A stretch of DNA of 64,000 nt from Acidimicrobiales bacterium (GTDB lineage Bacteria > Actinomycetota > Acidimicrobiia > Acidimicrobiales > JBBRKR01): NCBI GenBank assembly GCA_038231795.1, contig JBBRKR010000002.1:90702-154701 (forward strand), in the 5' to 3' direction. Below the pieces are notes generated by a model, which was given only the letters and a program-made list of their open reading frames with translations, did no database searches and was not told the DNA's origin. This document shows positions 1-52,733 of this stretch, piece by piece (positions within the stretch are counted from its first letter, which is position 1; each line of letters opens with the position of its first letter). A program made the translations under genes and the position numbers.

Positions 1-1
1 A

Positions 2-13719: not shown

Positions 13720-13742
13720 CTCGCCGCCGTAACCTTGACCCT

Positions 13743-14618: not shown

Positions 14619-14640
14619 ATCGCCGGCCGGGGTTCGGCGA

Positions 14641-16755: not shown

Positions 16756-16764
16756 AGGCCGAAG

Positions 16765-17778: not shown

Positions 17779-17840
17779 GGCCGCAACTATGCCCGGTCGC
17801 TCACCGAATTCACAACCTTCGTCTTAACGAAAGGCGGTAT

Positions 17841-18736: not shown

Positions 18737-18781
18737 AAGCCTGCCTGAAACGTGCTCGTGCGGTGAAGTGCACCCGGTAAC

Positions 18782-20718: not shown

Positions 20719-20726
20719 CGACGAAT

Positions 20727-21515: not shown

Positions 21516-21558
21516 TTGGTCCCCTTCCGGCCGCCACGACGACGATCGATTCGCTAGG

Positions 21559-34761: not shown

Positions 34762-35670
34762 TTAGGCGGCCCGAAAAACTCCTGGTCCGATTTCCAACAC
34801 CGCGCTGTTGCGCATCAATCGAGTGACATGCATGCGGGCCGATGTACGTTCTACGTCGTCGGCAAACAAAATCTCGACGCCGGGCCGGTAGATAAATCGA
34901 TGTTGCACCATCTCTTCAATCGTGTGCGGTTCCGCCAGGTACGCCAACATTCGGCGATCACGGTCGGGGATCACGGCGGCGAACCTATCGAGAGCCGTTA
35001 AGAAATCGGCTCGCCCATCTATTACGCCTTTGTGGTGAAACGTCACGAAGTGCTTGGCGTCGATGTGGCGGCAGGCCTCGATCGATCGTTCGAAATCTTC
35101 AAGATCGCTCCAATGGTCTCCGTAGTACGGACCGAATGCCGATAGGTCGATATCGGCCACAAAAAATACGCCGTCGGGTTCGATCAAAAATCCGCTATGC
35201 CCTCGTGTGTGCCCAGGCAAATGAATCACGCGAACCGTCACTCCTCCGAGGTCAAAGACTGCTCCGTCTTCAAACGAGCTGGCACTAGGGCGCGGGGTGA
35301 AATGGAACTTCGACAGGATCTCGGCTTCCCATTGCTCCCGCACGCCTGGTGCCATCCCGTAGATATTGAGAAACCCCTCCAGTGATGCAATGCCAGGGTG
35401 ATCGGCTGTATGGATGTTGACAGTCGCCGAACCGCACATATGGGTGCCGCAGAAGTGGTCCTCATGCGCATGGCTAATGAGCACGTGATCGACGTGATCG
35501 GCAGGCACCCCGCCCCGCTCCACGACGCTGAGCGACGGGTCAATTACGACGGTTCCGTGGCTGCCTTGCACAAGCACAGAATTACCGTTCGGGTACTTGC
35601 CGTTGTCGGCTCCCATGAGCACACCGACGTGGCCAATTCGGCGATCGCTATCTAGCCACGGTGCCGTCAT
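34762..35670 (-). CDS. MBL fold metallo-hydrolase
   Basis: 302 aa with the HxHxDH motif (SHAHEDH). It overlaps the upstream FAD oxidoreductase gene by 4 nt. Confidence 0.75.
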   Translation of the reverse strand: MTAPWLDSDRRIGHVGVLMGADNGKYPNGNSVLVQGSHGTVVIDPSLSVVERGGVPADHVDHVLISHAHEDHFCGTHMCGSATVNIHTADHPGIASLEGFLNIYGMAPGVREQWEAEILSKFHFTPRPSASSFEDGAVFDLGGVTVRVIHLPGHTRGHSGFLIEPDGVFFVADIDLSAFGPYYGDHWSDLEDFERSIEACRHIDAKHFVTFHHKGVIDGRADFLTALDRFAAVIPDRDRRMLAYLAEPHTIEEMVQHRFIYRPGVEILFADDVERTSARMHVTRLMRNSAVLEIGPGVFRAA

Positions 35671-37130: not shown

Positions 37131-37155
37131 TAGGTTACTGGCAGAAATTTCTTGG

Positions 37156-38932
<1,777 letters not shown>

Positions 38933-38953
38933 GTTTGCCGCATAAAAGTGTGT

Positions 38954-38991
38954 GAATGGCCCGGGAGCGATCCCGGGCCATTCAGATTTTT
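38954..38991 (+). terminator. rho-independent terminator of groEL
   Basis: A 12-bp perfect stem (gaatggcccggg / cccgggccattc) with a 6-nt loop, followed by agattttt. Confidence 0.8.
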
Positions 38992-39073
38992 GTCACGAAG
39001 CTTGGTCTTTTGGGCGGGTGCAAAGTACGTGCACGGTGGGTTACGGGCGAGTGAACAAAGCTAAGGTCGCCGC

Positions 39074-39661
39074 GTGGCACGCATTTCCGATCCGGTCAAA
39101 CGGCTGGCATTGCTGGATGAGGTTGTGGCCTACCTGGCGTCCCATGGTTTAGGACCTTTGTCGATGCGGCCGCTAGCTGCCCACCTGGGAGTGAGCACGA
39201 ATCGCCTGGTTCACCATTTCGGTAGCAAGGAAGAACTCGTGGCCGCCGCGCTGGCTCGCGCTGAGGAGCAGCAACTCGCGGTTCGTGATCAATGGCTCGT
39301 CAAAGCCCCAAATTTGTCGCAAGCCGAGCAGCTCCGCAAATGGTGGGTCTGGCTGAACCGGTCGCCCCGCAACCTGGCGTTGGTGCGTCTTGGGCTTGAA
39401 GCAGTCGCCATCGATGCCACGTCGTCGGGAGTGCCTGGCGATGTGCGGGCCCGTCAGATCGGCGTGTGGCGCGTTGAGATCGAGCATGGCCTAACGCGCG
39501 CTGGTCTATCAAACGCCGAAGCAGAAATTGAGGCGTCGATTGTGAAGGCAATTTTCACTGGGTTGGTACTCGACCTGATTGCTAGTGGCGACAGGACAAG
39601 ACTCTCGGCAGCGTTGGAAGTGGCGTTGGCGCGCCTTGAGTCACGAGTTCTCCAGCCGTAG
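39074..39661 (+). CDS. TetR family transcriptional regulator
   Basis: 195 aa with a GTG start. The HTH region is LALLDEVVAYLASHGLGPLSMRPLAAHLGVSTNRLVHHFGSKEEL. Confidence 0.8.
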   Translation: MARISDPVKRLALLDEVVAYLASHGLGPLSMRPLAAHLGVSTNRLVHHFGSKEELVAAALARAEEQQLAVRDQWLVKAPNLSQAEQLRKWWVWLNRSPRNLALVRLGLEAVAIDATSSGVPGDVRARQIGVWRVEIEHGLTRAGLSNAEAEIEASIVKAIFTGLVLDLIASGDRTRLSAALEVALARLESRVLQP

Positions 39662-40510
39662 TTTCCGGAGCAATCGGGGCACATCGACTGGCTGCACGAT
39701 GGCTGCCCGAATTAAATCGTCGAAGTGTTCGATCATGGTGCGGACATGATCTTCCGAATTGACGACGAGAAACATCTGTCCCAAATACAGAGCCGCTCGA
39801 CGCACGCCGAAGATGGTGATGGGCGTGGAATAGCGCTGGCGACCGTCGAAGAGGAACCAACGGAAGTTGGGATAAATCTCGTCGAGTAGTTCGATCATGT
39901 GATCGACGGCGGCCAACCTTTTGCGCTTGTCGAATGTGGCCCAAATGCCTTCCCCACGTACAAATCCTTCGACAGATTGCACACTGCTACACGCTTCCAC
40001 ATCGGTGCCCGGACGGCGGGCCAAATCGAGTCGCGCCGCAGCTGTTTCCATTTGTTGTTCTGGCCGCACGGTGGCGAACTTGTTGAGTTCGTGGCGAATC
40101 ACAGCGTCTTGTTTGAGGAGGTCAGGAATAGTCATGGGTACGTATCGCACTTTGCTGCCGATGGCTTCGGTGAGCCACCCCATCAGCCGTTCGTCGTTGG
40201 GCGACAGAGCGTCTCGTTCAATCGACATTTGTTCGACCATCATTTCGGTTCGAGCCTGACCATCGTCGGAAAGCCCGAGAAGCCAATCGAGTGACACGCC
40301 TAGGGTCTGGGCGATAGCGGCCAACGTTTCTGCTCTCGGCAGTCGGTTGCTGTGCGGCGAGAGGAGCTGCGACAGGGTCGAACGGTCAATGCCAAGCTGG
40401 GCCGCGAATTGCCCCTGATTGAGAGGCTGCGTTGCCACGAGATGACGGAACCGGGTGTTGAATTGGTCCACAAATTGATTTGTCATACCATCATTATGAT
40501 GTATAAACAC
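39641..40510 (-). CDS. XRE family helix-turn-helix transcriptional regulator with uncharacterised C-terminal domain
   Basis: 289 aa from the GTG at 40510. An alternative ATG at 40486 (MTNQFVDQF) is more likely because the extra codons lie in AT-rich sequence. HTH: QFAAQLGIDRSTLSQLLSP...LAAIAQTLGVSLDWLLGLS. Confidence 0.7.
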   Translation of the reverse strand: MFIHHNDGMTNQFVDQFNTRFRHLVATQPLNQGQFAAQLGIDRSTLSQLLSPHSNRLPRAETLAAIAQTLGVSLDWLLGLSDDGQARTEMMVEQMSIERDALSPNDERLMGWLTEAIGSKVRYVPMTIPDLLKQDAVIRHELNKFATVRPEQQMETAAARLDLARRPGTDVEACSSVQSVEGFVRGEGIWATFDKRKRLAAVDHMIELLDEIYPNFRWFLFDGRQRYSTPITIFGVRRAALYLGQMFLVVNSEDHVRTMIEHFDDLIRAAIVQPVDVPRLLRKLRLENS

Positions 40511-40567
40511 AACAACGTGATGTAATTGTTCACAATGGGTGATGATGTAACCGATTTGTAACGGGGT

Positions 40568-41554
40568 GTGACTGGCATGGCAAAGCCGTTACAGGTTCAA
40601 TTGCTGACAGTGGTCCCATCAACACAAACTCGTGAGCTTGGCGGTTCGACGCGCCTAGGGGCCGAGTGGCTAACCGTCGGCACCGGGGTCGCTGTGTTCG
40701 CGGCGTTCCTCTCGGTCACATTTCTCGGCGGCCGTTGGCCTCTGTGGGTACTCCTCCCATTGCTCGCCGTTACCAGCGCGTGGCACAGTTCGTTTCAACA
40801 CGAACTCCTCCATGGACACCCATTCCAAAACCAAACGGTCAACGATGTGATTGGTTTGCTCTCGCCGCAATTGTGGATTCCGTATCGGGAATATCGGCGT
40901 ACCCACCTCCTGCACCATCGCAATGAGTTTTTGACCATGCCGGGCGTCGACCCGGAGGCGTACTACACCACCCGCCAAGTTTGGCGAGGGCGTAACTGGT
41001 TTGAGAAGACGTTGTTTCGGGCTAATCGAACACTGCTCGGCCGCCTAACAGTAGGTCCATTTCTAGTGATAGCCAGCTCGCTCAAAGCCGAGATTCCGCG
41101 AGTGATCAACGGCGAAGGCCGCGCCCGTCGCAGCTGGGCGGAACACGTGGTGGCCAACGGCATCGTGCTGTGGTGGGTTGTGAGCATGTGCAACATGCGG
41201 GTGTGGGTGTACCTCGTTGGCGCTGTGTATGGCGGGTTGGCCTTGGTGCTCCATCGCAGTTTTATCGAGCATCGGTTCGTGGCGGCCGACCGTGGGCGTA
41301 CGGCAATGGTCCAAGCTGGCCCGTTTTGGGCATTGCTGTACCTCAACAACAACTTGCACGACACGCACCACGAGCAGCCCCGTGCCCCGTGGTACCAGCT
41401 TCCTGCGCTAAGTGAACAGCTCGATTCAGCCACTAAGGCGCAAGCGGGTGGGGGCTTGTATCGCGGGTACTGGGACGTTGCTCGCCGGTATGGCCTGCGG
41501 CCATTTGATCAATCGGTGCACCCAAGCGAACTCGGTCTACAGTCCACTCGGTGA
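40568..41554 (+). CDS. membrane fatty acid desaturase-family di-iron protein
   Basis: 328 aa with three His boxes (HELLHGH, HLLHH, HDTHHEQP) and TM helices. The start is GTG at 40568 or ATG at 40577. Confidence 0.8.
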   Translation: MTGMAKPLQVQLLTVVPSTQTRELGGSTRLGAEWLTVGTGVAVFAAFLSVTFLGGRWPLWVLLPLLAVTSAWHSSFQHELLHGHPFQNQTVNDVIGLLSPQLWIPYREYRRTHLLHHRNEFLTMPGVDPEAYYTTRQVWRGRNWFEKTLFRANRTLLGRLTVGPFLVIASSLKAEIPRVINGEGRARRSWAEHVVANGIVLWWVVSMCNMRVWVYLVGAVYGGLALVLHRSFIEHRFVAADRGRTAMVQAGPFWALLYLNNNLHDTHHEQPRAPWYQLPALSEQLDSATKAQAGGGLYRGYWDVARRYGLRPFDQSVHPSELGLQSTR

Positions 41555-42330
41555 GCCCCGTTGCGACCTTGCCAATGTACGACCTGCCGGAGGTCGTTGG
41601 CCATACGAACGCTTTGTGGAATGCCATTGGCAGTCGAATTGATGGCGCCCCAAAATGGCTCACTCGTCCGACATCGACGCCCGAAATGCATGCATTGTGG
41701 AAGCATCCCGAGCTCGTGCTCGGACAGACATGCGGGTGGCCTCTTGTCACGGAGTTGTGGCCGTTGGTGATGAGCGGCGCGTTGAGCGTCGTAGGGACGT
41801 TTTGGTATCACGCGTCGACCGAAGATGGTTATTACAACGCCAATCACGTGTACCCAAATCCGAGGGGTGCCGTTCATTCGCCGCGCTCGGCGGTGAATTC
41901 TTACGACAGCTTGTCGGGGTGGGTAAGCCACGCGTATCGAAATACCGAAGCCATTACCTCGGTCCTGCTCACGGGCTCACACGTCGAGACGTTGCGGGCG
42001 ATTCAATCGAACACAGCCGACATGGGCACCATTGATGCAGTTACCTATGACCTCCTTCGCCGCCATCGCCCTGAGGCCGTGAGTGGGATTTTGGTCAGTA
42101 AAGGAGACCTTCGGGTGCCATGCCTTCCACTCATCACGACCCGGCCGGTGGAGGAAATTCGAGAAGCGATCGTGGACGCCCTCGCTCAGCCTGAATTGGC
42201 CACCGACCTCGACGCGCTTGCAATTTACGAATTCGTGCCGATGGACGCTTCGCATTACGAGCACCTACTTCGATACTCTGGCGATGCGAATTTCCGTTAC
42301 GATCGTCCCGGTAATTCTTTGCGAAATTAA
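41551..42330 (+). CDS. PhnD/SsuA-like substrate-binding-fold protein without signal peptide
   Basis: 259 aa with a GTGA overlap with the desaturase stop. The motifs PMYDLPEV, GQTCGWPLVTEL, NSYDSLSG, TGSHVETLRAIQ and IDAVTYDLLRRHRPE match the phosphonate-bd (PF12974-type) family as I remember it. Confidence 0.7.
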   Translation: MSPVATLPMYDLPEVVGHTNALWNAIGSRIDGAPKWLTRPTSTPEMHALWKHPELVLGQTCGWPLVTELWPLVMSGALSVVGTFWYHASTEDGYYNANHVYPNPRGAVHSPRSAVNSYDSLSGWVSHAYRNTEAITSVLLTGSHVETLRAIQSNTADMGTIDAVTYDLLRRHRPEAVSGILVSKGDLRVPCLPLITTRPVEEIREAIVDALAQPELATDLDALAIYEFVPMDASHYEHLLRYSGDANFRYDRPGNSLRN

Positions 42331-42378
42331 CCGGCCGCATTGCCGTCATATTTTGCTGACCAACGAGGGAGTGCACGA

Positions 42379-43932
42379 ATGAGCGAACCAGAATCAGCCG
42401 AGCCGCGTAAGCGTCGTGGCGGTCGCAGCGATGCCGTGCGCAGTCGTCTGCCCGAACAGGTCGCTTACAACCAGCCGCGGCTCCGGTACGCCCCCACAGA
42501 GGTCGTTTCGGCCGACGAGTTGGAGTCGATTCACAACGCGTCGCTCACAATTCTGGAAACCACGGGCATGGATTTCCTGGACGATGAAGCACGCCGTCTG
42601 CTCAAAGATGCGGGCGCCGATGTAAGGCCCGGAAGTGAGCGTGTTCGCTTCGACCGGGACATGATTCTTGAACGCATCAAAACGGTGCCCAAGCAGTTCA
42701 CGTTGCACTCGCGCAACCCAGCCCACAACATCGAAATCGGCGGCAACTATGTGTCGTATGGATCGGTGGCCAGTGCCCCCAATGTGTACGACATGGATAG
42801 GGGCCGGCGGGTCGGCAATCACGAGGATTATAAGAATCTGCTCCGCCTAAGCCAGATGCTCAACACGGTGCACTTTATAGCCGGATACCCCGTGGAGCCC
42901 ATCGACATTCACGCATCAGTACGCCATCTCGACGCCACCTACGACGCCTTAACCCTGACCGATAAGCCTATCCACGCCTATAGTTTGGGTCGTCAACGCA
43001 ACCAGGATTGCCTGGAACTCGTGCGATTGGCCCGCGGTATTGAGGACGCCACTCTCGATCAAGAACCATCGATTTTCACCGTCATCAACTCAAGTTCGCC
43101 ACTGCGTCTCGACACGCCAATGTTGCACGGAATTCTGGAATTTTCTGCCCGCAATCAAGTGATCGTGCTGACGCCATTCACGTTGTCGGGAGCAATGGCC
43201 CCCATCACGTTGGCTGGGGCGTTGGCGCAACAAAATGCAGAAGCACTGGCCGGCATCACATTGACTCAAGTGGTGCGCCCGGGATCGCCTGCGGTCTACG
43301 GCGGCTTTACCAGCAACGTGGATATGCAATCGGGCGCACCTGCATTCGGCACTCCGGAATTCATGCGCACCGCAATGGTCGGTGGGCAACTTGCTCGGCG
43401 GTATGGCTTTCCGTATCGCAGCTCCAACGTGTGCGCGGCCAATGCCCTCGACATGCAAGCGGCCTGGGAATCAGTCTTTTCCATCTGGGGAGCGTTGATG
43501 GGTGGCGTGAACATGATGATGCACGGCGCTGGATGGATGGAAGGCGGCCTGCACGCCGGTTACGAAAAAATGATCGTGGATGCCGAGCTTCTACAAATGG
43601 TGACTGCGTTCATGGAACCCATTGCTGTCGACAACGACTCTCTGGCGTTGGAGGCCATTGAAGAGGTCGGGCCTGGTGGTCACTTTTTTGGCACGTCGCA
43701 CACTCAAGCCCGCTTTCGCACGGCGTTCCATCACCCGATGTTGAGCGATTGGCGCAACTGGGAATCGTGGGAAGAAGCCGGCTCACCACAGACTCCTGGC
43801 AAGGCCAACGCCATCTGGAAGGAAATGCTCAACGCGTACGAGGCGCCATCAATTGATGACGCAGCGCGCGAAGGGATGGCGGCGTTCGTGAGTCGTCGCA
43901 AAGCCGCCGGTGGCGTCCCTACCGACTTCTAA
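42379..43932 (+). CDS. trimethylamine methyltransferase (MttB) superfamily protein, non-pyrrolysine type
   Basis: I moved the start to the ATG at 42379 (GAGGGA upstream), giving about 517 aa. The family-typical N-terminus is ADELESIHNASLTILETTGM, and length fits the family. The ORF is uninterrupted, with no internal TAG. Confidence 0.85.
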   Translation: MSEPESAEPRKRRGGRSDAVRSRLPEQVAYNQPRLRYAPTEVVSADELESIHNASLTILETTGMDFLDDEARRLLKDAGADVRPGSERVRFDRDMILERIKTVPKQFTLHSRNPAHNIEIGGNYVSYGSVASAPNVYDMDRGRRVGNHEDYKNLLRLSQMLNTVHFIAGYPVEPIDIHASVRHLDATYDALTLTDKPIHAYSLGRQRNQDCLELVRLARGIEDATLDQEPSIFTVINSSSPLRLDTPMLHGILEFSARNQVIVLTPFTLSGAMAPITLAGALAQQNAEALAGITLTQVVRPGSPAVYGGFTSNVDMQSGAPAFGTPEFMRTAMVGGQLARRYGFPYRSSNVCAANALDMQAAWESVFSIWGALMGGVNMMMHGAGWMEGGLHAGYEKMIVDAELLQMVTAFMEPIAVDNDSLALEAIEEVGPGGHFFGTSHTQARFRTAFHHPMLSDWRNWESWEEAGSPQTPGKANAIWKEMLNAYEAPSIDDAAREGMAAFVSRRKAAGGVPTDF

Positions 43933-43972
43933 TCAGCTAGAAATTGAACATCTACAACAAAGGATTGTGCTC

Positions 43973-46408: not shown

Positions 46409-46410
46409 CG

Positions 46411-48579
46411 ATGGCTCGTTTCGTGATCGACGGCCAGCCCCTTGACTATGAGCCTGGCGATTCATTGGCGGTGGCGCTGTTTCGATCCGGACATCACCCA
46501 GCCCACGGCGGCACGTTGTGCCTGGCCGGCGATTGCGGAAACTGTGTTGCTGAAGTGAACGGAACAGCCTACGTACGTACGTGTCAAACCCTTGCTGCGC
46601 CAGGCACTGTGGTCAATCGGCATCCCGCAGTCGGCGCCCCGAAGTTTCGCTCGGTGCCGCAGAAAAATCCGGTCGAGACGCCGTTGGCGAGTGAGATCCC
46701 CGTGCGTCGCCGGTCGGCAGATGTGGTGGTCATCGGGTGTGGAGATTCGGGCGCGAATGCCGCGGCCCGCGCCGAGGCGGATGGGCGTCAGGTGACCATG
46801 CTGGACTCGAAGTTGGGTCACGAAGTTGTGGGTGTGTACGGCGGCCCGTCAGTGATCGTGCGCAGCCACGAGGGCATGACGCACCTCCATGCGCACGACG
46901 TGGTCATCTCCACCGGTGCCGCAGAACTACACCCCGTCTGCGAGGGCAATTTGCTCAAGGGCGCTGTCACAAAAAAGGCAGCAGAGTTGTTGTTGGCCGC
47001 TGGTGTTGAGCTGCCCCAAATGGTCACCGTTACCGATACTCCGCAACGCATCATCGGCAATGAAAATGGGTGGATCCGCGAAGTCGTGTTAGCCGGCGGC
47101 GAGACCGTGCCGTGCCACGTATTGGTGGTTGATCTCGGGCTTGCGCCACGTGACCTGTTGGCCCGAATGACTGACGAATCAAACGTCACAGTCGTAGGCC
47201 CGGCCGCCCAAAAATATTCTTTGCCGCCCTGCCCCACGAGCGGTTTCGTGTGCCCGTGCTCCAAGATCACTGTCGAAGATATCGATGGCGTGTGGGACCG
47301 TGGTTTTCACGAGCTCGAATTGGTGAAGCGATCGGCTCTGGTGGGTACTGGCACATGCCAAGGCGGGGCGTGCTTGCCTCACCTTCAGGCCTACGTGAAT
47401 GAGAAATCAGGTGCAGAATCCAAGCCGTTCACGGCCCGCCCGATTGCCCGCCAGTTGACGATCGGCGAAGCAGCGGCGGGCGCTTACGTGGACACCTTTC
47501 GCCGCACGGGGCTGCATGACGAGCACCTCAAACTGGGTGCCAACATGGACCGATTTGGCGGTTGGTGGCGGCCATGGAACTACGGAGATTTCCTGCAGGA
47601 ATATTGGGCAGTGCGCGAAGCCGTCTCCCTCGGCGATGTGAGCACACTCGGCAAGATGGTGATCTCTGGTCCCGATGCTCTCGAGGTTTTGGAACGCCTG
47701 TATCCCAACAACGTTTTTGATATCAAGCCCGGCCGCAGTCGTTATGTGTTGTTGCTCAACGAGCGAGGCCATCTCCTCGACGACGGCATGATCTGCCGCG
47801 AGTCCGACACACGCTTCGTGCTCACATTTACATCCGGTGGCGCGTCCTTCGCCGAGATGTGGGTACGGGACTGGATCGAAACGTGGGGTCTTGATGCCCA
47901 TGTGCTGGATCGCACTACATCGCTGGGAGCCATAAACGTAACTGGCCCGTTTGCCAAAGAATTACTGAGTCGAGTGGGCGTGAGTGATCCGCCGAAATTC
48001 TTGCAGCACACGCATATCGAAGTGGCCGGCGTGCCGTGTCATGTGATGCGGTTGAGCTTCACTGGCGAGGCGTCCTTCGAGCTCCACCACCCCATAGACC
48101 GGTCGGCTGAATTGTGGCAAGCCCTCATGGCGGCCGGCGCCGACCTCGGCATCCGGCCTCACGGGTTGCAAGCGCTATTTGCCCTTCGGCTCGAAAAGGG
48201 TCACGTGATTGTGGGTATGGATTCCGAGCTGGATTCCTCGCCTCGCCGTCTGCAATTGGAATGGGCTGTAAAGATGGACAAGCCCTACTTCGTGGGACGC
48301 GAAGCACTGGCCAGAGTGATGCCGCTGCCGAACCACCGCCAACTGTTTGGCTTCACAATGGACAGTCCAGGGCCTGTAGAAGGTGCGCCAATTTTCGACG
48401 GCCCCGACATCGTGGGTCACGTTGCTTCGAGTTTCGATTCGCCGTTGTTGGGTGAGGCCGTGATGTTGGGCTGGCTCAAACGCACGCCATTTCCCACCGA
48501 GGTCACCATCAACGGACGCACCGCCACCGTTGCCCACACACCGTTCTACGACAAAGAAGGCGGCAGGGCACGTGGATAA
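46411..48579 (+). CDS. soxA: sarcosine oxidase alpha subunit family protein (short form)
   Basis: 722 aa. It has an N-terminal 2Fe-2S-like domain (LCLAGDCGNCVAEVNG), the dinucleotide motif VVVIGCGDSGANAA and a C-terminal GcvT domain. Confidence 0.8.
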   Translation: MARFVIDGQPLDYEPGDSLAVALFRSGHHPAHGGTLCLAGDCGNCVAEVNGTAYVRTCQTLAAPGTVVNRHPAVGAPKFRSVPQKNPVETPLASEIPVRRRSADVVVIGCGDSGANAAARAEADGRQVTMLDSKLGHEVVGVYGGPSVIVRSHEGMTHLHAHDVVISTGAAELHPVCEGNLLKGAVTKKAAELLLAAGVELPQMVTVTDTPQRIIGNENGWIREVVLAGGETVPCHVLVVDLGLAPRDLLARMTDESNVTVVGPAAQKYSLPPCPTSGFVCPCSKITVEDIDGVWDRGFHELELVKRSALVGTGTCQGGACLPHLQAYVNEKSGAESKPFTARPIARQLTIGEAAAGAYVDTFRRTGLHDEHLKLGANMDRFGGWWRPWNYGDFLQEYWAVREAVSLGDVSTLGKMVISGPDALEVLERLYPNNVFDIKPGRSRYVLLLNERGHLLDDGMICRESDTRFVLTFTSGGASFAEMWVRDWIETWGLDAHVLDRTTSLGAINVTGPFAKELLSRVGVSDPPKFLQHTHIEVAGVPCHVMRLSFTGEASFELHHPIDRSAELWQALMAAGADLGIRPHGLQALFALRLEKGHVIVGMDSELDSSPRRLQLEWAVKMDKPYFVGREALARVMPLPNHRQLFGFTMDSPGPVEGAPIFDGPDIVGHVASSFDSPLLGEAVMLGWLKRTPFPTEVTINGRTATVAHTPFYDKEGGRARG

Positions 48580-48952
48580 TTTCGACACCATTCATTGTCG
48601 ACGGGTAGTCGCCACCGCTGCCGCGCTTGACGGCGCCACATGGCCGAGCGGCGCTCTGATTTTGCGTATTGCCCCCGATGATGTGTTGGTTATCGGCGAC
48701 GGCGATATCGCTATCGACGATATGCACGCCATCGTCTGCGACGAGGCCGGATTCTCGGGAACGTGGCTCGATTACGAAGCGTTTGCGCCATTCGCCGAAA
48801 GCCACATTCACTGGTCGCTACCAACCGGTCGGTCCGTTCTGGCTCAAGGTCTGCTGGCTCAAGTCCCCGTGAAATTGTGGCTGGGAAGCGACAGCGTTTT
48901 GCTCCTTGTAGCCACAGTTTCGAAACACGAATTGACGGAGCGGCTGGCATGA
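48572..48952 (+). CDS. sarcosine oxidase gamma subunit-like protein (short)
   Basis: A GTG at 48572 overlaps the soxA stop (GTGGATAA), giving about 126 aa. The LRIAPDDVLVIG motif and the overall pattern resemble SoxG. It sits between soxA and soxB. Confidence 0.5.
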   Translation: MDNFDTIHCRRVVATAAALDGATWPSGALILRIAPDDVLVIGDGDIAIDDMHAIVCDEAGFSGTWLDYEAFAPFAESHIHWSLPTGRSVLAQGLLAQVPVKLWLGSDSVLLLVATVSKHELTERLA

Positions 48953-50157
48953 ACGAATTCGTGGAAACCATCTTGGACCTTACGTGGCACGAACCGAAGT
49001 CGAGCTACGACGTGGTGATTGTGGGAGGCGGCGGTCATGGCTTGGCTACTGCTTATTACCTCGCCACTCGGCACGGTATTACCAACGTCGCAGTCATCGA
49101 AAAGGACTACATCGGGTCAGGCAATTCAGGGCGCAACACCACGATTATCCGCGCCAATTACGGCATCCCAGAATCGATTCGTTTTTACTCACACAGCTTG
49201 CGCCTCTACGAGAATCTGGAAGCCGAAACCGGCTGCTGGATCATGCATGCTACAAAAGGCCTGATGTGGCTGGCTCACACGGAATCGGCCATGCGAGCAG
49301 AGCGTGCCCGATGCCAGCTCAACACTGCGTGCGGCACCGAAACCGTGATGGTCACCCCTGCCGAAGCAAAGCAAATCTGCCCACAACTCGACCTCAGCGG
49401 GGGTGGTCGTTACCCGCTGTTGGGAGCTTCGCATCACACTGGCGCAGCCACGGCGCGCCATGACCGCGTGGTGTGGGCCTATGCCCAAGGGGCCATGCGT
49501 CAAGGTGTGCACGTGTTGCAAAATACGGCTGTTACAGGTCTTGTGATGGACGGCGAACGAGTCACTGGGGTGCGCACTCCGCAGGGCATCATTTCGGCAG
49601 GCATTGTGATGAGCGCCGTCGGCGGCGATGTCACCTCGTTGGCGGCCCACGCTGGCGTGCGATTGCCGATTCGTACCCATCCTCTGCAAGCGTTCGTCAC
49701 CAACGGGTACGCCCAGAGTTTCGGGCCCATTATTAGCGACACTGAACTGCTGTGTTACGTGTCGCAGACCGCCCGCGGGCAGATGCTCATCGGCGCCGAA
49801 TTTGATCGCCAGCAAAGCTTTTCGCGGCAATCTACTTTTGATTTCGTGCAATCTGTTTCGGCCAAGCTTTCTCACCTGTTGCCGTTCCTGAGGGATCTAC
49901 GAATCATGCGGCAGTGGACGGGCCGATGCGATGTGTCGAGCGACTTTTCGCCCGTCATGGGGTTCACCGGCGTGGACGGTTTTGTTATCACAACGGGATG
50001 GGGCACATGGGGCTTCAAAGGTATCCCTGCTGGCGGTGAGCAAATGGCACAGCTCATTGCCACTGGGCAGACGCCAGATCTCATCAAACCGTTTGCTCTG
50101 AGCCGGTTCAGTACCGATCACGCCATGGCCGACCAAGGATCGACAGGTACTCGCTGA
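48949..50157 (+). CDS. soxB: sarcosine oxidase beta subunit
   Basis: I moved the start to the ATG at 48949 (ATGA overlap with the upstream stop), giving 402 aa. The sequence includes YDVVIVGGGGHGLATAYYLATRHGITNVAVIEKDYIGSGNSGRNTTIIRANY. Confidence 0.9.
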   Translation: MNEFVETILDLTWHEPKSSYDVVIVGGGGHGLATAYYLATRHGITNVAVIEKDYIGSGNSGRNTTIIRANYGIPESIRFYSHSLRLYENLEAETGCWIMHATKGLMWLAHTESAMRAERARCQLNTACGTETVMVTPAEAKQICPQLDLSGGGRYPLLGASHHTGAATARHDRVVWAYAQGAMRQGVHVLQNTAVTGLVMDGERVTGVRTPQGIISAGIVMSAVGGDVTSLAAHAGVRLPIRTHPLQAFVTNGYAQSFGPIISDTELLCYVSQTARGQMLIGAEFDRQQSFSRQSTFDFVQSVSAKLSHLLPFLRDLRIMRQWTGRCDVSSDFSPVMGFTGVDGFVITTGWGTWGFKGIPAGGEQMAQLIATGQTPDLIKPFALSRFSTDHAMADQGSTGTR

Positions 50158-50393
50158 TGTTGTGGATCACATGCCCATGCTGCGGTCATCGACCGGTGGA
50201 TGAATTCCGCTTTGGTGGTGAGATGCCCGACGTTCCCGCATCAGTGGTGGGCGACGACGCTCGCGATCTCGATCGGGTGTAGATGTTTAACAACATCGAT
50301 GGGCCGTCCGTGGAGCGTTGGTTTCATGAAGGCGGTTGCCGCAGGTGGTATACGGTTACTCGCGACACGCACAGCGATCGCGTGCTGAGTTAG
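50157..50393 (+). pseudogene. soxD: sarcosine oxidase delta subunit interrupted by in-frame TAG at 50280-50282 (nonsense, split gene or recoding)
   Basis: Not in the ORF track because both halves are under 60 aa. The frame starting at the ATG at 50157 (TGATG overlap with the soxB stop) reads MLWITCPCCGHRPVDEFRFGGEMPDVPASVVGDDARDLDRV, then TAG, then MFNNIDGPSVERWFHEGGCRRWYTVTRDTHSDRVLS, then TAG. Both halves match the SoxD zinc-binding pattern (CPxCG ... ERWxHxxGCRRW). Confidence 0.75.
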
Positions 50394-50402
50394 ATTTTTG
50401 TT

Positions 50403-51602
50403 GTGACGCTCATTGGTGACTTCGACGTATACCTTCGGGTGGCAGCCCTCGAAACGGTGGCGGCCAATTGTGACCGTGTGACGGCAACATGGAGCGATGG
50501 TCATGTTGGGCACTTTCACTTGGTGTGGCTACGTGACAATTGCCCGTGCGAGATGTGTGTTCATACTGGGACCAAAGAGCAAACCTTTGAATTGTTGGAT
50601 GGGCCATCCGACTTGACACTCGTGTCGGGTGGAGTTGTCTCGGCAAGAGACATGGATCTCACATGGTTCGACGGCCACCGCACCGTGATCGACGGAGCGT
50701 GGCTACGAGCCCATTGCTATTGCGATCTGTGCTTGGCGAATGCCGGCGCAGCGCCGAAGCTGTGGACCGCCGCCACCATGAGCGAGCCGCCTACCTTCGC
50801 ATGGTCGAGCGTGTCGACACTCGACAGTGCTCGATACGAGTGGCTTTCGGCACTGCGAGATTTCGGCACCACCCGAGTGAGCGGCTTACCCACTACCGAT
50901 GAGATGGTTGGCGAGTTGGCCCGCTTGATTGGCCCGGTGCGTGACACCAACTTTGGCGTACAGTGGGATGTGTGGACAGAGCCAGACCCTGTCACTAACG
51001 CCAACACGGCATTGCTTCTCCCGTCGCACGTCGACTTACCGACACGGGAATACCAGCCAGGCCTTCAGTTTTTACACTGCCTAGAAAATGAGGCAGCAGG
51101 TGGGATGAGCACCATGGTCGATGGATTTGCGGTAGCCAACGCGCTGCGCAAATTCGATTCAGAGGCGTTTGAAACTCTCACTACGGTGCCGTGGAATTGG
51201 GCCAACAGGTCCAAGACCAGCGACTACCGATGGGCGTCGCCAATGATCGTGACCGACCACACCGGTGCGGTCACCGAAGTACGAGTGGGCAACTGGCTAC
51301 GCGCTCCGCTGCAGACAAAAGCAGCAGATGTGGAGCGGGCCTACACGGCGTATCGAGCATTTGCCACGCTGACTCGAAGCAAGGAGTTCCGCATCGAATT
51401 CCGCTTCGAACCAGGTGACTGTATCGCCTTTGACAACCGACGGATTTTACACGGCCGCACTGCGTTCGATGATGGCGACAATGGTCGCCGTCATTTGCGG
51501 GGGTGCTACTCAGAACGCGATGAATTGCACTCGCGGCTGCGAATTTTAGAGCGTCAACGGCGGGCTGTCGGGAGCCACGATGATGCGCACAATCATGAAT
51601 GA
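50403..51602 (+). CDS. gamma-butyrobetaine hydroxylase-like dioxygenase (DUF971 N-domain + TauD/TfdA Fe(II)/2-oxoglutarate domain)
   Basis: 399 aa with a GTG start. The N-terminal zinc motif is WSDGHVGHFHLVWLRDNCPCEMC. The TauD-like core has the HVD facial-triad context (LLLPSHVDLP) and RILHGR. Confidence 0.8.
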   Translation: MTLIGDFDVYLRVAALETVAANCDRVTATWSDGHVGHFHLVWLRDNCPCEMCVHTGTKEQTFELLDGPSDLTLVSGGVVSARDMDLTWFDGHRTVIDGAWLRAHCYCDLCLANAGAAPKLWTAATMSEPPTFAWSSVSTLDSARYEWLSALRDFGTTRVSGLPTTDEMVGELARLIGPVRDTNFGVQWDVWTEPDPVTNANTALLLPSHVDLPTREYQPGLQFLHCLENEAAGGMSTMVDGFAVANALRKFDSEAFETLTTVPWNWANRSKTSDYRWASPMIVTDHTGAVTEVRVGNWLRAPLQTKAADVERAYTAYRAFATLTRSKEFRIEFRFEPGDCIAFDNRRILHGRTAFDDGDNGRRHLRGCYSERDELHSRLRILERQRRAVGSHDDAHNHE

Positions 51603-52733
51603 ACCAAGGACGCAATTGATGGTGAGTAGCGCCCAAAAGTATCCCGTTGATCCCAGGTGACTCATCGAAGTTGAGCTAATGAGCGGACCGGTCATGGCGC
51701 CGATGGCATACAACCTCACAAGAGCACTGCCGGCGGCCACCACTTTGTCGGCGGGGAGCCAATCGTTGGTGTACACGTTGGCCAGGCCGTAGAGCGGCGT
51801 GCTCAAGCCTCCTAGAAGCCCAAAGGCCACGAGTGAGGGCGTAGATCCTGGTTGCAGAGACACGAGCGCTAAGCACGTGCCAGCGCTGCCCAACGCTAAA
51901 ACGACGAAGAGCAGCCGGCGTGGGACCTTGTCGGCAACTACGCCCGCTGGCACTTGCAGAAGCACTGTCCCCATCATGATGGCGATCATTACTTTCGCTA
52001 TTTGAGAAGACGTCAGTCCGACGTTGGTTGCCCACACCGATGCCATCACGATGACAGCGCTCTGTGTCATGCCCACCAACACCATGGCAATGGCACCTGA
52101 CGGCACAAGTTGCACAACGCTCTTCAAAGAAATGTGGCCATCGTTGCTGGCTAACGAGCGGCTGGCGGGGATTCGAATCAGCGCTAGGGATGCCGCCGCC
52201 GTGGCCGTTCCCGCGATCAGAAAGGGCACCACCGTATTGGTGTTGGCCACGTTGAGTAACACCTGTCCAACTGCAATGCCTCCCGAGATCACGGCTACGT
52301 AGATAGCGATCAAACGACCGCGGGTTTTGTTGGAAGCCAGGTCATTGAGCCACGATTCCACGACGACGTACACTCCTCCCAATGATCCTCCACCGATAAG
52401 TCGCAGCAGCATCCATGAAGGCTTGTTGACTAAAACTCCATACATCACACAGGCACTGGCCATTGTGGAAGCAAACATCGCGAAGCAGGTCGTCCGTGTG
52501 AAGCGACCCAGCATGCGCACGGCCAACGGGGTGGCGATCAAGAACCCGACATACGTCATCGAGTTGATGACCCCCATGGAATCAGTCGAGAATCCCTCGG
52601 CTTTCGCTCGAATACTCAACAGTGAGCCGAGCAGCCCGTAGCCGACCATCAAGATGCCCATGCCCACGATGATCGACGTCGCTGCGCGACGCGATGGGGT
52701 GCCGTGAACCTTCCCGAGTACAACGGTGATCAT
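51546..52733 (-). CDS. MFS transporter
   Basis: 395 aa with about 12 predicted TM segments. Its 3' end overlaps the convergent dioxygenase gene by 57 nt. Confidence 0.85.
   Translation of the reverse strand: MITVVLGKVHGTPSRRAATSIIVGMGILMVGYGLLGSLLSIRAKAEGFSTDSMGVINSMTYVGFLIATPLAVRMLGRFTRTTCFAMFASTMASACVMYGVLVNKPSWMLLRLIGGGSLGGVYVVVESWLNDLASNKTRGRLIAIYVAVISGGIAVGQVLLNVANTNTVVPFLIAGTATAAASLALIRIPASRSLASNDGHISLKSVVQLVPSGAIAMVLVGMTQSAVIVMASVWATNVGLTSSQIAKVMIAIMMGTVLLQVPAGVVADKVPRRLLFVVLALGSAGTCLALVSLQPGSTPSLVAFGLLGGLSTPLYGLANVYTNDWLPADKVVAAGSALVRLYAIGAMTGPLISSTSMSHLGSTGYFWALLTINCVLGSFMIVRIIVAPDSPPLTL

What the first reader, a model, noticed from the sequence alone, without database searches (positions are those of the whole stretch)
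39641..52733. Candidate aerobic quaternary-amine N-demethylation island combining an MttB-family methyltransferase with O2-dependent demethylases
Nine consecutive plus-strand genes are packed with start/stop overlaps: GTGA at 41551-41554, GTGGATAA at 48572-48579, ATGA at 48949-48952 and TGATG at 50155-50159. The genes are:
- a membrane di-iron desaturase-like protein
- a signal-less PhnD-like binding protein
- a non-Pyl MttB-superfamily methyltransferase
- a DMGDH-like FAD/GcvT enzyme
- soxA, a soxG-like gene, soxB and soxD
- a gamma-butyrobetaine-hydroxylase-like DUF971/TauD dioxygenase
A divergent XRE regulator (39641-40510) and a convergent MFS transporter (51546-52733) bracket the block. 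Characterised non-Pyl MttB members (MtgB, MtcB, MtpB, MtyB) remove one methyl group from glycine betaine, carnitine, proline betaine or gamma-butyrobetaine in anaerobes. They do so using a corrinoid protein. DMGDH and heterotetrameric sarcosine oxidase remove the remaining N-methyl groups onto tetrahydrofolate. BBOX-type enzymes hydroxylate gamma-butyrobetaine. Putting these in one operon suggests a complete trimethylammonium-to-primary-amine route in an aerobe. In it the first, chemically hardest demethylation would be done by an MttB homolog rather than a Rieske (GbcAB) or BHMT system. Two additional uncharacterised components (desaturase-like and PhnD-like) are part of the same unit. The substrate identity and the methyl acceptor are unknown.
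Basis: partly seen in the sequence, partly recalled or inferred. Interest (0 to 1): 0.65.

Follow-up and report, generated by a model that had tools for sequence, protein, structure and literature searches.

The report
Glycine betaine demethylation operon, MttB-led
This is a real operon, conserved across several phyla, that most likely strips the three methyl groups from glycine betaine using an MttB-family methyltransferase, a dimethylglycine dehydrogenase and a sarcosine-oxidase-like complex; the same principle was published for aerobic marine bacteria in 2025, so it is a new variant rather than a new kind.

Summary
The nine plus-strand genes, their overlaps and nearly all domain calls are confirmed. 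Three corrections apply:
- soxD carries an in-frame TAG (50280-50282) where four relatives have TGG (Trp).
- The "soxG-like" gene has no detectable SoxG similarity.
- The PhnD-like Pfam hit is below threshold in the window copy, although the predicted fold confirms a PhnD/AioX-type binding protein.

The core MttB-DMGDH-SoxA-small subunit-SoxB-SoxD is colinear in about 50 of 80 related loci from Acidimicrobiia, other Actinomycetota, Chloroflexota and Verrucomicrobiia. It is often flanked by genes for choline-to-betaine conversion, an OpuA-type betaine transporter and folate C1 metabolism. Glycine betaine is therefore the likely substrate.

The MttB clade keeps the carboxylate-binding Arg and His of characterised MtgB but lacks both aromatic cage residues. 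No corrinoid protein lies in the window or in any related locus.

The gamma-butyrobetaine-hydroxylase-like gene and the MFS transporter occur only in this lineage. XRE/desaturase/PhnD-like is a separate, Actinomycetota-specific module that is inverted here.

MttB-family betaine demethylation in aerobes is already published (Ruegeria pomeroyi MtgBCD, PNAS 2025). I call this a new variant of a known kind, of moderate interest.

The parts
39641..40510 (-). XRE-family regulator: an HTH domain plus a C-terminal domain of about 200 aa of unknown family. It is divergent from the desaturase gene.
   Evidence: PF01381 HTH_3, 33.5 bits. Conserved at 55-60% identity next to MttB in about 12 actinobacterial loci. 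It is 33% identical over its full length to an HTH protein paired with a desaturase on the Phaeobacter sp. G2 plasmid. In other Proteobacteria its homologs pair with DUF2061 in unrelated contexts.
40568..41554 (+). Membrane di-iron FA_desaturase/hydroxylase-family protein. Substrate unknown.
   Evidence: PF00487, 95.6 bits. The His boxes HELLH, HLLHH and HDTHH are visible in the translation. The best NCBIfam hits (CrtR, CrtW, DesA, GntB) are all far below their cut-offs. It is 36% identical to the Phaeobacter plasmid desaturase that lies beside carnitine 3-dehydrogenase, and 40-44% identical to homologs on Rhizobium and Ensifer replicons.
41551..42330 (+). PhnD/AioX-like class II binding-protein fold with no signal peptide, presumably cytoplasmic. 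Ligand unknown.
   Evidence: PF12974, 23.6 bits, below the gathering score of 27. The AlphaFold model has mean pLDDT 90.5. The best Foldseek PDB matches are AioX and ArrX (TM about 0.75), then PtxB, PhnD and HtxB. The family is small (230 proteins) and mostly from Acidimicrobiia. More distant members sit in unrelated contexts.
42379..43932 (+). Non-pyrrolysine MttB-superfamily methyltransferase (the ORF opens at 42340; the likely start is ATG 42379). Proposed glycine betaine methyltransferase.
   Evidence: PF06253, 648.8 bits; TIGR02369 (Pyl-type MttB) scores 308, below its cut-off of 525. There is no internal stop codon. The clade is 70-89% identical across phyla. Identity is 40% to S. meliloti 4YYC and 33% to D. 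hafniense MtgB. R347 and H382 correspond to MtgB R312 and H348. A131 and G390 replace Y97 and F356.
43910..46408 (+). Dimethylglycine dehydrogenase orthologue (FAD domain plus folate-binding GcvT domains). The true start may lie about 20 codons downstream.
   Evidence: DAO, FAO_M, GCV_T and GCV_T_C domains. It scores 619 bits to human DMGDH 5L46 and 615 bits to rat DMGDH 4P9S, against 314 bits to Arthrobacter DMG oxidase. It lies immediately after MttB in most of the 80 loci, at 69-90% identity.
46411..48579 (+). Short-form sarcosine-oxidase alpha-like subunit: two 2Fe-2S-type motifs, one dinucleotide-binding motif, an A3 domain and a GcvT folate domain.
   Evidence: Fer2_4, Fer2_BFD, SO_alpha_A3, GCV_T and GCV_T_C domains. 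Only residues 287-720 align to the heterotetrameric sarcosine oxidase alpha subunits 2GAG and 1VRQ, which are 965 aa long. TIGR01372 scores 261, below its cut-off of 1164.
48572..48952 (+). Conserved 126-aa small subunit in the position of soxG. Family unassigned.
   Evidence: No Pfam, NCBIfam or PDB-sequence hit. hhalign against one canonical SoxG gives probability 1%. The gene is nevertheless present between SoxA and SoxB in about 45 loci, with 12 invariant residues across 17 sequences.
48949..50157 (+). Sarcosine oxidase beta-family flavoprotein.
   Evidence: PF01266, 213 bits. TIGR01373 soxB scores 401.9 bits, below its cut-off of 529. Identity in relatives is 65-90%.
50157..50393 (+). soxD (delta subunit), interrupted by an amber codon at 50280-50282. 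An ATG follows the TAG directly.
   Evidence: In-frame TAG. The aligned codon is TGG (Trp) in L083, L004 and L011. The near-identical strain has an intact 78-aa SoxD.
50403..51602 (+). Fe(II)/2-oxoglutarate dioxygenase of the gamma-butyrobetaine hydroxylase / TmpA / trimethyllysine hydroxylase family. A lineage-specific add-on.
   Evidence: TauD 165 bits plus GBBH-like_N. TIGR02409 scores 318 (cut-off 415) and TmpA NF049936 scores 293 (cut-off 400). In the PDB, TmpA scores 190 bits and human BBOX 179 bits. It is absent from all 80 MttB loci and present in the 94%-identical strain L083. A 52% homolog in an Acidimicrobiales MAG lies next to 3HCDH, BKACE, MTHFR-like and FolD genes.
51546..52733 (-). 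Convergent MFS transporter. Its 3' end overlaps the dioxygenase gene by 57 nt.
   Evidence: PF07690, 90.8 bits. The same gene follows the dioxygenase in L083. It is absent next to the operon in other relatives.

Best explanation
The core of the island (42379-50393) is a catabolic operon that converts glycine betaine to glycine.

Step 1 (inferred). The non-Pyl MttB-family enzyme removes the first methyl group from glycine betaine to give dimethylglycine. It most probably passes the methyl group to a corrinoid protein encoded elsewhere in the genome. From there it would go to tetrahydrofolate or homocysteine, as in the MtgBCD(E) system of aerobic Ruegeria pomeroyi.

Step 2 (by strong orthology). 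The DMGDH orthologue oxidises dimethylglycine to sarcosine and transfers the C1 unit to tetrahydrofolate.

Step 3 (by family and operon position). The SoxA/small-subunit/SoxB/SoxD complex converts sarcosine to glycine, again loading tetrahydrofolate.

In this strain soxD carries a TGG-to-TAG change. The last step is therefore either impaired, or rescued by re-initiation at the adjacent ATG, or the base call is an error.

The gamma-butyrobetaine-hydroxylase-like dioxygenase and the MFS transporter are recent additions. They plausibly import another trimethylammonium compound and hydroxylate it: gamma-butyrobetaine to carnitine, or a TmpA-type substrate. The product would feed the betaine pool through genes outside the window.

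XRE/desaturase/PhnD-like is a neighbouring Actinomycetota-specific module. The XRE protein probably controls the divergent desaturase/PhnD-like pair and possibly the operon. The biochemical role of that pair is unknown.
For: Conservation of the core:
- The colinear core occurs in about 50 of 80 loci from several phyla. Identities are MttB 70-89%, DMGDH 69-90% and SoxB 65-90%.
- No Rieske GbcA-type gene was found in the window or among the annotated recurrent neighbour families. BHMT-type genes occur in only 4 loci. MttB is therefore the only candidate for the betaine-to-dimethylglycine step.

Flanking genes in relatives:
- OpuAC-type binding protein, CBS-containing ABC ATPase and permease (about 24 loci).
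- Aldehyde dehydrogenase directly upstream of MttB and co-directional (22 loci).
- Fe-ADH after soxD (18 loci).
- GMC oxidoreductase, FTHFS, and a BHMT/MtgE-like gene (NF005718, 500 bits) after soxD.

Enzyme assignments:
- DMGDH scores 619 bits to human DMGDH.
- MttB retains the Arg and His that bind the betaine carboxylate in MtgB, invariant in the 120 closest clade members (PMC13080624).

Precedent: MtgB homologs act in aerobic betaine catabolism together with MtgC and MtgD, which are not always adjacent (PMC12478193).

Dioxygenase: a homolog in an Acidimicrobiales MAG is clustered with carnitine-dehydrogenase-like, BKACE, MTHFR-like and FolD genes.
Against: - The two aromatic residues (Y97, F356) that form the cation-pi site for betaine in MtgB are replaced by Ala/Ser/Gly and by Gly throughout the clade. 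The authors of that study regard the four-residue motif as a likely minimum for betaine activity (PMC13080624).
- No protein with a corrinoid-binding motif, and no pterin-binding methyltransferase among the Pfam-scanned ORFs, lies in the 64-kb window or within 10 kb of MttB in 80 loci.
- Identity to characterised MtgB is only 33%.
- MR_MLE genes in 18 loci, and the S. medicae homolog's context, would also fit proline- or hydroxyproline-betaine chemistry.
- No experimental data exist for this clade.
- soxD is interrupted in this strain.
Confidence: 0.6

Rival explanations
1. The MttB clade demethylates a different acidic quaternary amine, such as proline betaine, hydroxyproline betaine, carnitine or gamma-butyrobetaine. 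The betaine-to-dimethylglycine step is done by an unlinked enzyme.
For: Both aromatic cage residues of MtgB are absent. Characterised non-betaine MttB members likewise keep the Arg and His but not the aromatic pair (PMC13080624). MR_MLE (enolase-superfamily) genes lie near the operon in 18 loci. The S. medicae pSymA homolog sits with MR_MLE, an Ldh-family oxidoreductase and a betaine-type ABC transporter. In the window, a gamma-butyrobetaine-hydroxylase-like gene is adjacent.
Against: MttB is immediately followed by DMGDH and the Sox genes in about 50 loci. The products of proline-betaine or carnitine demethylation are not DMGDH substrates. Genes for choline-to-betaine conversion flank the operon. 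The hydroxylase-like gene is absent from all 80 loci, so it cannot define the clade's substrate.
Confidence: 0.2
2. The clade is a corrinoid-protein-independent methyltransferase. It would pass the methyl group directly to tetrahydrofolate or homocysteine, or use free cobalamin or an unrecognised carrier.
For: No ORF with a DxHxxG...SxL...GG motif occurs in the window or in 80 loci. No B12-binding or pterin-binding Pfam domain was found in any Pfam-scanned window ORF or in the scanned neighbour families. The operon partners are all folate enzymes. A BHMT-like gene follows soxD in 4 loci and FTHFS precedes MttB in 4 loci. The active site is altered.
Against: Every characterised MttB-superfamily member methylates a corrinoid. 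In R. pomeroyi the partner genes are also dispersed (PMC12478193). Absence within 10 kb says nothing about the rest of the genome. An MTHFR-like/FolD pair near betaine-related genes in a MAG that carries the operon fits methyl-THF formation through a corrinoid route.
Confidence: 0.1
3. In this particular strain the pathway is decaying. The amber codon in soxD is real and the sarcosine step is non-functional.
For: TAG replaces a Trp codon that is invariant in four relatives. TAG is used as an ordinary stop in this operon, at the ends of DMGDH and soxD.
Against: It is a single base change in an otherwise intact nine-gene block with no other internal stops. An ATG follows the TAG immediately, so two half-peptides could be made. 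A sequencing or assembly error cannot be excluded. This reading is compatible with the best explanation for the operon's ancestral function.
Confidence: 0.3
4. Desaturase-like, PhnD-like and dioxygenase genes act together on a phosphonate or lipid-type trimethylammonium compound. One example is a TmpA-like hydroxylation followed by di-iron C-P cleavage to give betaine, which would feed the operon.
For: The dioxygenase scores slightly higher to TmpA than to BBOX among PDB sequences. The PhnD-like fold belongs to the family of phosphonate- and oxyanion-binding proteins. The product of the TmpA/TmpB pathway is glycine betaine (my own knowledge of Rajakovich et al. 2019; not checked here).
Against: The dioxygenase never co-occurs with the desaturase/PhnD-like pair in the other loci. 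No HD-domain TmpB is present in the window. XRE homologs and distant PhnD-like homologs occur in unrelated contexts.
Confidence: 0.05

Closest known systems
MtgBCD(E) glycine betaine methyltransferase system of aerobic Ruegeria pomeroyi DSS-3 (PMC12478193)
   Same: A PF06253 MttB-family enzyme acts as the first betaine demethylase in an aerobe. It is followed by DMG and sarcosine demethylation that feeds folate-linked C1 oxidation. In other Proteobacteria these genes are often co-located with the downstream demethylation genes.
   Different: This locus is from a different phylum, and proteobacterial homologs are at most 56% identical. No mtgC, mtgD or ramA lies in the window or in 80 related loci. 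MttB is fused into a single operon with DMGDH and a rearranged sox gene set.
MtgB of Desulfitobacterium hafniense (PDB 2QNE/9YCE; PMC13080624)
   Same: Same superfamily, and the sequences align over the full length (309 bits). The carboxylate-binding residues R312 and H348 are conserved.
   Different: Identity is 33%. Y97 and F356 are replaced by Ala and Gly. MtgB comes from an anaerobe and has an adjacent corrinoid protein, which this locus lacks.
Sinorhizobium meliloti putative trimethylamine methyltransferase, PDB 4YYC
   Same: It is the best match among solved structures (373 bits, 40% identity). It also has Gly at the F356 position and comes from an aerobe.
   Different: It keeps Tyr at the Y97 position. 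Its function is uncharacterised.
Mammalian dimethylglycine dehydrogenase (PDB 5L46, 4P9S)
   Same: Full-length alignment at 615-619 bits, with the same DAO-FAO_M-GcvT architecture.
   Different: This is a bacterial enzyme, and no ETF genes are adjacent in the window.
Heterotetrameric sarcosine oxidase SoxBDAG (PDB 2GAG, 1VRQ/3AD7)
   Same: Beta-family, delta-family and the C-terminal two-thirds of the alpha subunit are present, together with a fourth small subunit. The alpha subunit has a folate-binding GcvT domain.
   Different: The gene order is A-small-B-D instead of B-D-A-G. The alpha subunit is about 240 aa shorter, with Cys motifs typical of 2Fe-2S clusters. The small subunit has no detectable SoxG similarity. 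The SoxA and SoxB scores are below the NCBIfam cut-offs.
Gamma-butyrobetaine dioxygenase (BBOX) and TmpA (PDB 3MS5, 6NPB)
   Same: DUF971/GBBH-like_N plus TauD architecture. A CxCxxC zinc motif and an HxD...H iron motif are visible in the translation.
   Different: It is below both equivalog cut-offs (318 against 415; 293 against 400). The two PDB scores are nearly equal, so the substrate cannot be assigned.
GbcAB/BmoAB Rieske betaine monooxygenase, and BHMT
   Same: They perform the same metabolic step, betaine to dimethylglycine, in other aerobes.
   Different: They are unrelated enzyme families. No Rieske GbcA-type gene was found in the window or among the annotated recurrent neighbour families of the conserved operon. 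A BHMT/MtgE-like gene is present in only 4 loci.

Membership tests
MttB superfamily (PF06253) | Full-length match to the MTTB profile above the gathering score | tested here: met
   648.8 bits against a cut-off of 25, covering residues 25-524 of the ORF.
Pyrrolysine-containing trimethylamine methyltransferase MttB | In-frame UAG (Pyl) codon and a score above the TIGR02369 equivalog cut-off | tested here: not met
   No internal stop codon in 42379-43932. TIGR02369 scores 308, below its cut-off of 525.
MtgB (glycine betaine:corrinoid methyltransferase) | Carboxylate-binding residues R312 and H348 | tested here: met
   R347 and H382 in the window protein. Both are invariant in the 120 closest clade members.
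MtgB (glycine betaine:corrinoid methyltransferase) | Cation-pi pair Y97 and F356 | tested here: not met
   A131 and G390 in the window protein. In the clade these positions are A/S/G and invariant G.
MtgB (glycine betaine:corrinoid methyltransferase) | Cognate corrinoid protein and methylcobalamin:THF methyltransferase encoded nearby or elsewhere in the genome | tested here: inconclusive
   None in the 64-kb window or within 10 kb in 80 loci. The rest of the genome is not available.
MtgB (glycine betaine:corrinoid methyltransferase) | Betaine-dependent methylation of cob(I)alamin | not testable with these tools
   This needs an enzyme assay.
Dimethylglycine dehydrogenase | DAO + FAO_M + GcvT + GcvT_C architecture, with closest similarity to characterised DMGDH | tested here: met
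   All four domains are present. It scores 619 bits to human DMGDH and 314 bits to DMG oxidase.
Heterotetrameric sarcosine oxidase | Beta subunit above the TIGR01373 cut-off | tested here: not met
   401.9 bits against a cut-off of 529.45. It is the best family hit but sub-threshold.
Heterotetrameric sarcosine oxidase | Full-length alpha subunit (about 965-1000 aa; TIGR01372) | tested here: not met
   The protein is 722 aa. It scores 261 against a cut-off of 1164, and only residues 287-720 align to 2GAG_A.
Heterotetrameric sarcosine oxidase | Intact delta subunit (PF04267) | tested here: inconclusive
   It hits PF04267 at 67.6 bits only after TAG is replaced by Trp. As encoded, the gene is interrupted.
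Heterotetrameric sarcosine oxidase | Gamma subunit (SoxG family) | tested here: not met
   No Pfam or NCBIfam hit. A profile search against PDB sequences found nothing. hhalign against one Azospirillum SoxG gave probability 1%.
Gamma-butyrobetaine dioxygenase / TmpA | Score above the equivalog cut-off | tested here: not met
   TIGR02409 scores 317.6 against a cut-off of 414.75. NF049936 scores 293.1 against a cut-off of 400.
Gamma-butyrobetaine dioxygenase / TmpA | N-terminal GBBH-like Zn domain plus TauD catalytic domain | tested here: met
   PF06155 at 53.5 bits and PF02668 at 165.1 bits.
Membrane fatty-acid desaturase/hydroxylase family | PF00487 match and the three histidine boxes | tested here: met
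   95.6 bits. HELLH, HLLHH and HDTHH are present in the translation.
PhnD/PtxB/AioX periplasmic binding proteins | Class II binding-protein fold | tested here: met
   The model has pLDDT 90.5. Foldseek TM is about 0.75 to AioX and ArrX, and 0.72-0.74 to PtxB and PhnD.
PhnD/PtxB/AioX periplasmic binding proteins | Export signal and an associated ABC transporter or sensor kinase | tested here: not met
   The N-terminus MSPVATLPMYDLPEVV has no hydrophobic signal segment. No adjacent ABC or histidine-kinase genes.

The most novel reading that the evidence does not exclude
This highly conserved MttB subclade has Ala and Gly in place of the MtgB aromatic pair. It is never next to a corrinoid protein in 80 loci, and it is nearly always joined to folate-dependent DMGDH and Sox enzymes. 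It could therefore be a betaine methyltransferase that works without a dedicated corrinoid protein. The acceptor might be tetrahydrofolate or homocysteine directly, or a carrier not yet recognised. That would make it a mechanistically new branch of the superfamily and the main betaine demethylase of soil and freshwater Actinomycetota and Chloroflexota.
Probability: 0.1. Interest if true: 0.8.

Novelty: new variant of a known kind. Interest (0 to 1): 0.45.

Why it matters
Glycine betaine is a major osmolyte and a source of carbon, nitrogen and C1 units. Which enzyme starts its breakdown in aerobes that lack GbcAB was resolved only in 2025, and only for marine Proteobacteria.

This locus shows that a distinct, very conserved MttB subclade is wired directly into a DMGDH/sarcosine-oxidase operon. 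The operon occurs in Acidimicrobiia, other Actinomycetota, Chloroflexota (Limnocylindrales and others) and Verrucomicrobiia from soils, streams and lakes.

It gives a gene marker and a clear test case for betaine turnover, and possibly cobalamin demand, in these abundant and mostly uncultured groups.

It also raises a mechanistic question. The published betaine-binding aromatic pair is missing, and no corrinoid partner is linked.

Tried and rejected
- Exact-sequence look-ups of the window MttB and of P0001 found no contig.
- A first greedy ORF clustering of the 80 loci picked long antisense ORFs, which is typical of GC-rich DNA. I redid it with a GC3 filter.
- A regex scan for the corrinoid motif DxHxxG...SxL...GG gave six hits, all in out-of-frame junk.
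- tblastn with carnitine dehydrogenase, BKACE, MTHFR, FolD and ETF from L084 found none of these in the window.
- The SoxG test by profile against PDB sequences and by hhalign against one canonical SoxG was negative.
- The promoter/terminator scan was no better than shuffles. Rfam found no riboswitch, only a tRNA-Thr.
- A TGATGTAA direct repeat in the XRE-desaturase spacer is not conserved in relatives, so I dropped it as an operator candidate.
- Contexts of distant PhnD-like homologs, and of XRE homologs in Proteobacteria, were unrelated to quaternary amines. These genes therefore cannot be tied to the pathway.
- OlsE (ornithine-lipid hydroxylase) was considered as the nearest characterised relative of the desaturase. 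It could not be tested because no sequence was available.
- Literature searches for this exact operon in Actinomycetota or Chloroflexota found nothing.

Full report
OBSERVATION

The four start/stop overlaps read as stated.

Pfam and NCBIfam confirm these assignments:
- FA_desaturase (95.6 bits)
- MTTB (648.8 bits)
- a DAO-FAO_M-GCV_T-GCV_T_C protein
- a SoxA-like protein
- a SoxB-family protein
- a GBBH-like_N + TauD dioxygenase
- an XRE HTH regulator
- an MFS transporter

Four corrections are needed.

(i) soxD (50157-50393) has an in-frame TAG at 50280-50282. In a 94%-identical strain (L083) and in two more distant relatives the aligned codon is TGG. L083 encodes an intact 78-aa SoxD. The repaired window sequence matches PF04267 at 67.6 bits. 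TAG is an ordinary stop here, since DMGDH and soxD both end in TAG. This is therefore a nonsense mutation or a base-call error, not recoding.

(ii) The PhnD-like Pfam match is sub-threshold (23.6 bits against 27). However, a confident model (pLDDT 90.5) matches AioX, ArrX, PtxB and PhnD at TM about 0.75.

(iii) The 126-aa 'soxG-like' protein has no sequence-detectable relation to SoxG. It is nevertheless conserved in that position in about 45 loci.

(iv) MttB most likely starts at ATG 42379, behind a GAGGGAG ribosome-binding site.

ORIGIN

The window is a housekeeping chromosomal region. It carries ClpC, RadA, IspD, GroEL, HemC and a tRNA-Thr. The organism's closest sequenced relative is an Acidimicrobiia MAG.

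CONSERVATION

The MttB protein belongs to a very tightly conserved clade. Members are 70-89% identical across MAGs of Acidimicrobiia, other Actinomycetota, Chloroflexota (Limnocylindrales and 'Chloroflexia'), Verrucomicrobiia and Methylomirabilota. At least 577 GTDB species representatives carry it.

I ran tblastn with all window proteins against 80 loci, each with 10 kb of flank on both sides. The order MttB-DMGDH-SoxA-small ORF-SoxB-SoxD is colinear in about 50 of them. Most of the rest are truncated contigs.

The other genes behave differently:
- The dioxygenase and the MFS gene are found in none of the 80 loci. They occur only in the near-identical strain L083.
- XRE, desaturase and PhnD-like genes accompany the operon in about 12 actinobacterial loci. 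The arrangement there is <-PhnD-like <-desaturase XRE-> MttB->.
- In the window and its nearest relative this three-gene block is inverted. That inversion is why the desaturase and PhnD-like genes now read in the same direction as the operon.

SUBSTRATE

After GC3-filtered ORF calling and clustering, I annotated the recurrent neighbours of the core operon in relatives:
- An OpuA-type ABC transporter: CBS-ATPase, permease and an OpuAC binding protein (about 24 loci).
- An aldehyde dehydrogenase immediately upstream of MttB and co-directional (22 loci). Its top NCBIfam hits include betaine-aldehyde dehydrogenase, below cut-off.
- An Fe-alcohol dehydrogenase after soxD (18 loci). Choline dehydrogenase GbsB is among its top hits, below cut-off.
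- A GMC oxidoreductase, and formate-THF ligase directly upstream of MttB (4 loci).
- A protein that passes the NCBIfam 'betaine-homocysteine S-methyltransferase' model (500 bits against a cut-off of 338), located after soxD (4 loci).
- IclR regulators and MR_MLE enzymes.

The 832-aa enzyme is a clear DMGDH orthologue: 619 bits to human DMGDH against 314 bits to DMG oxidase.

This context describes the route choline, betaine aldehyde, glycine betaine, dimethylglycine, sarcosine, glycine, with folate-linked C1 handling. The only step without an assigned enzyme is betaine to dimethylglycine, and the only unassigned conserved catalyst is MttB. This assignment is an inference from context, not a demonstration.

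THE MttB CLADE COMPARED WITH CHARACTERISED ENZYMES

The best solved relatives are S. meliloti 4YYC (40% identity) and D. hafniense MtgB 2QNE/9YCE (33% identity).

Picking et al. (PMC13080624) showed that MtgB binds betaine through Y97 and F356 (cation-pi) and through R312 and H348 (carboxylate). I mapped these residues using chain index = native number + 16, checked on all four residues.
- The window protein has R347 and H382 at the carboxylate positions. Both are invariant in the 120 closest clade members.
- It has Ala131 and Gly390 at the aromatic positions. In the clade these are A/S/G and invariant G.

The clade therefore binds an acidic quaternary amine but fails half of the published MtgB motif. 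Either other aromatics substitute (for example the Trp in the conserved HGAGW), or the substrate differs.

No corrinoid-type or pterin-binding protein was found among the Pfam-scanned ORFs of the 64-kb window. No ORF with a DxHxxG...SxL...GG motif lies within 10 kb of MttB in any of the 80 loci.

This does not exclude a distant partner. In R. pomeroyi the mtgB, mtgC and mtgD genes are also dispersed (PMC12478193). In addition, an Acidimicrobiales MAG that carries the operon has an MTHFR-like/FolD pair next to carnitine and betaine genes about 30 kb away. That is what one expects if methyl-THF is produced.

THE ADD-ONS

Dioxygenase. It belongs to the BBOX/TmpA/TMLH family but is below both equivalog cut-offs. 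Its scores to TmpA and to human BBOX among solved structures are nearly equal. A 52% homolog in the Acidimicrobiales MAG lies beside 3-hydroxyacyl-CoA-dehydrogenase-type (carnitine-dehydrogenase-like) and BKACE genes. This favours gamma-butyrobetaine hydroxylation feeding the route carnitine, dehydrocarnitine, betaine. None of those genes is in the window.

XRE/desaturase pair. It recurs at 33% and 36% identity on a Phaeobacter plasmid beside carnitine 3-dehydrogenase. However, XRE homologs elsewhere pair with DUF2061 in metal-resistance or unrelated contexts. Desaturase homologs on Rhizobium replicons have varied neighbours, once with a 30%-identical PhnD-like protein about 6 kb away.

I cannot assign a function to the pair. 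The most that can be said is this. It consists of an intact di-iron membrane oxygenase and a cytoplasmic oxyanion-type binding protein. Both probably sit under the control of the divergent XRE regulator, and the module is syntenic with the betaine operon within Actinomycetota.

COMPARISON WITH THE LITERATURE AND NOVELTY

Mausz et al. (PNAS 2025, PMC12478193) showed by proteomics and genetics that aerobic R. pomeroyi demethylates betaine with MtgB (PF06253), the corrinoid protein MtgC and the bidirectional methyltransferase MtgD. They also reported that these genes are often co-located with DMG and sarcosine demethylation genes in Alpha-, Gamma- and Deltaproteobacteria. About 5% of marine mtgC reads were assigned to Actinomycetota.

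What is new here is the following:
- a distinct subclade, at most 56% identical to proteobacterial homologs;
- an altered binding site;
- tight fusion into a rearranged DMGDH/SoxA-x-B-D operon;
- wide distribution in terrestrial and freshwater Actinomycetota and Chloroflexota;
- the consistent lack of a linked corrinoid partner.

I found no paper that describes this operon in these phyla.

VERDICT

My best explanation is a choline/betaine-to-glycine operon led by an MtgB-like enzyme that probably depends on a corrinoid (confidence about 0.6). I rate it a new variant of a known kind, with interest 0.45. The most novel reading that remains open is a corrinoid-protein-independent betaine methyltransferase. 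I give it about 10%.

Noticed in passing
window 50280-50282: An amber codon sits inside soxD where four relatives have TGG (Trp). The next codon is ATG, so the two halves could be made separately. It could also be a sequencing error.
   Followed up: yes
window 39641-42330, compared with L011, L017, L031, L033 and L053: The three-gene block XRE/desaturase/PhnD-like is inverted in this lineage relative to other Actinomycetota. In those, XRE is co-directional with MttB and the other two genes are divergent.
   Followed up: partly
L021 11838-12098, L026 12534-12773, L060 2573-2980, L063 3318-3797: In several Chloroflexota loci, type II toxin-antitoxin pairs (RHH or Phd antitoxin plus a PIN toxin) are inserted between MttB and DMGDH, inside the otherwise conserved operon.
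   Followed up: partly
L004 18188-19309 (also L020, L042, L057); L016 8085-9827: A gene that passes the NCBIfam betaine-homocysteine S-methyltransferase model follows soxD in four actinobacterial loci. Mausz et al. argue that such proteins are the MtgE module. Formate-THF ligase lies directly upstream of MttB in four loci.
   Followed up: partly
L090 (Phaeobacter sp. G2 plasmid) 1-5343: The gene run is carnitine 3-dehydrogenase, an SDR, an XRE homolog (33% identical), DUF2061, a desaturase homolog (36% identical) and a DMT transporter. The same regulator/desaturase pair therefore lies beside a quaternary-amine gene in an alphaproteobacterium.
   Followed up: partly
L093 (S. medicae pSymA) 8163-22284: An MttB homolog (45% identical) is clustered with a DMGDH-sized FAD oxidoreductase, a betaine-type ABC transporter, MR_MLE and an Ldh-family oxidoreductase. 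This looks like a proline- or hydroxyproline-betaine cluster that uses a methyltransferase instead of a Rieske demethylase.
   Followed up: no
window 46411-48579: The SoxA-like subunit is about 240 aa shorter than canonical alpha subunits. It carries Cys patterns typical of two 2Fe-2S clusters (CX4CX2C...C near the N-terminus, and CXC...CX3C in the BFD-like segment). Whether the complex is an oxidase or a dehydrogenase is open.
   Followed up: partly
window 34762-39661, compared with L001 1132-7280: The upstream block MBL-fold hydrolase, FAD oxidoreductase, GroEL paralog and TetR is shared with the nearest MAG. That MAG has an extra APH-family kinase gene between GroEL and TetR, which is missing from the window.
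   Followed up: no
window 51546-51602: The convergent dioxygenase and MFS genes overlap by 57 nt at their 3' ends. In the 94%-identical strain L083 they do not overlap, and the dioxygenase is 393 aa instead of 399 aa.
   Followed up: no
window 1213-2598, 10743-12044, 26249-27010: Three sizeable ORFs (461, 433 and 253 aa) have no Pfam match.
   Followed up: no
L009 and L006 (Actinomycetes/Actinomycetota MAGs): Two loci carry an MttB that is 80-81% identical but has no DMGDH or sox genes within 10 kb. There it sits next to an ABC transporter and acyltransferase and dehydrogenase genes. The clade is therefore not always tied to the operon.
   Followed up: no
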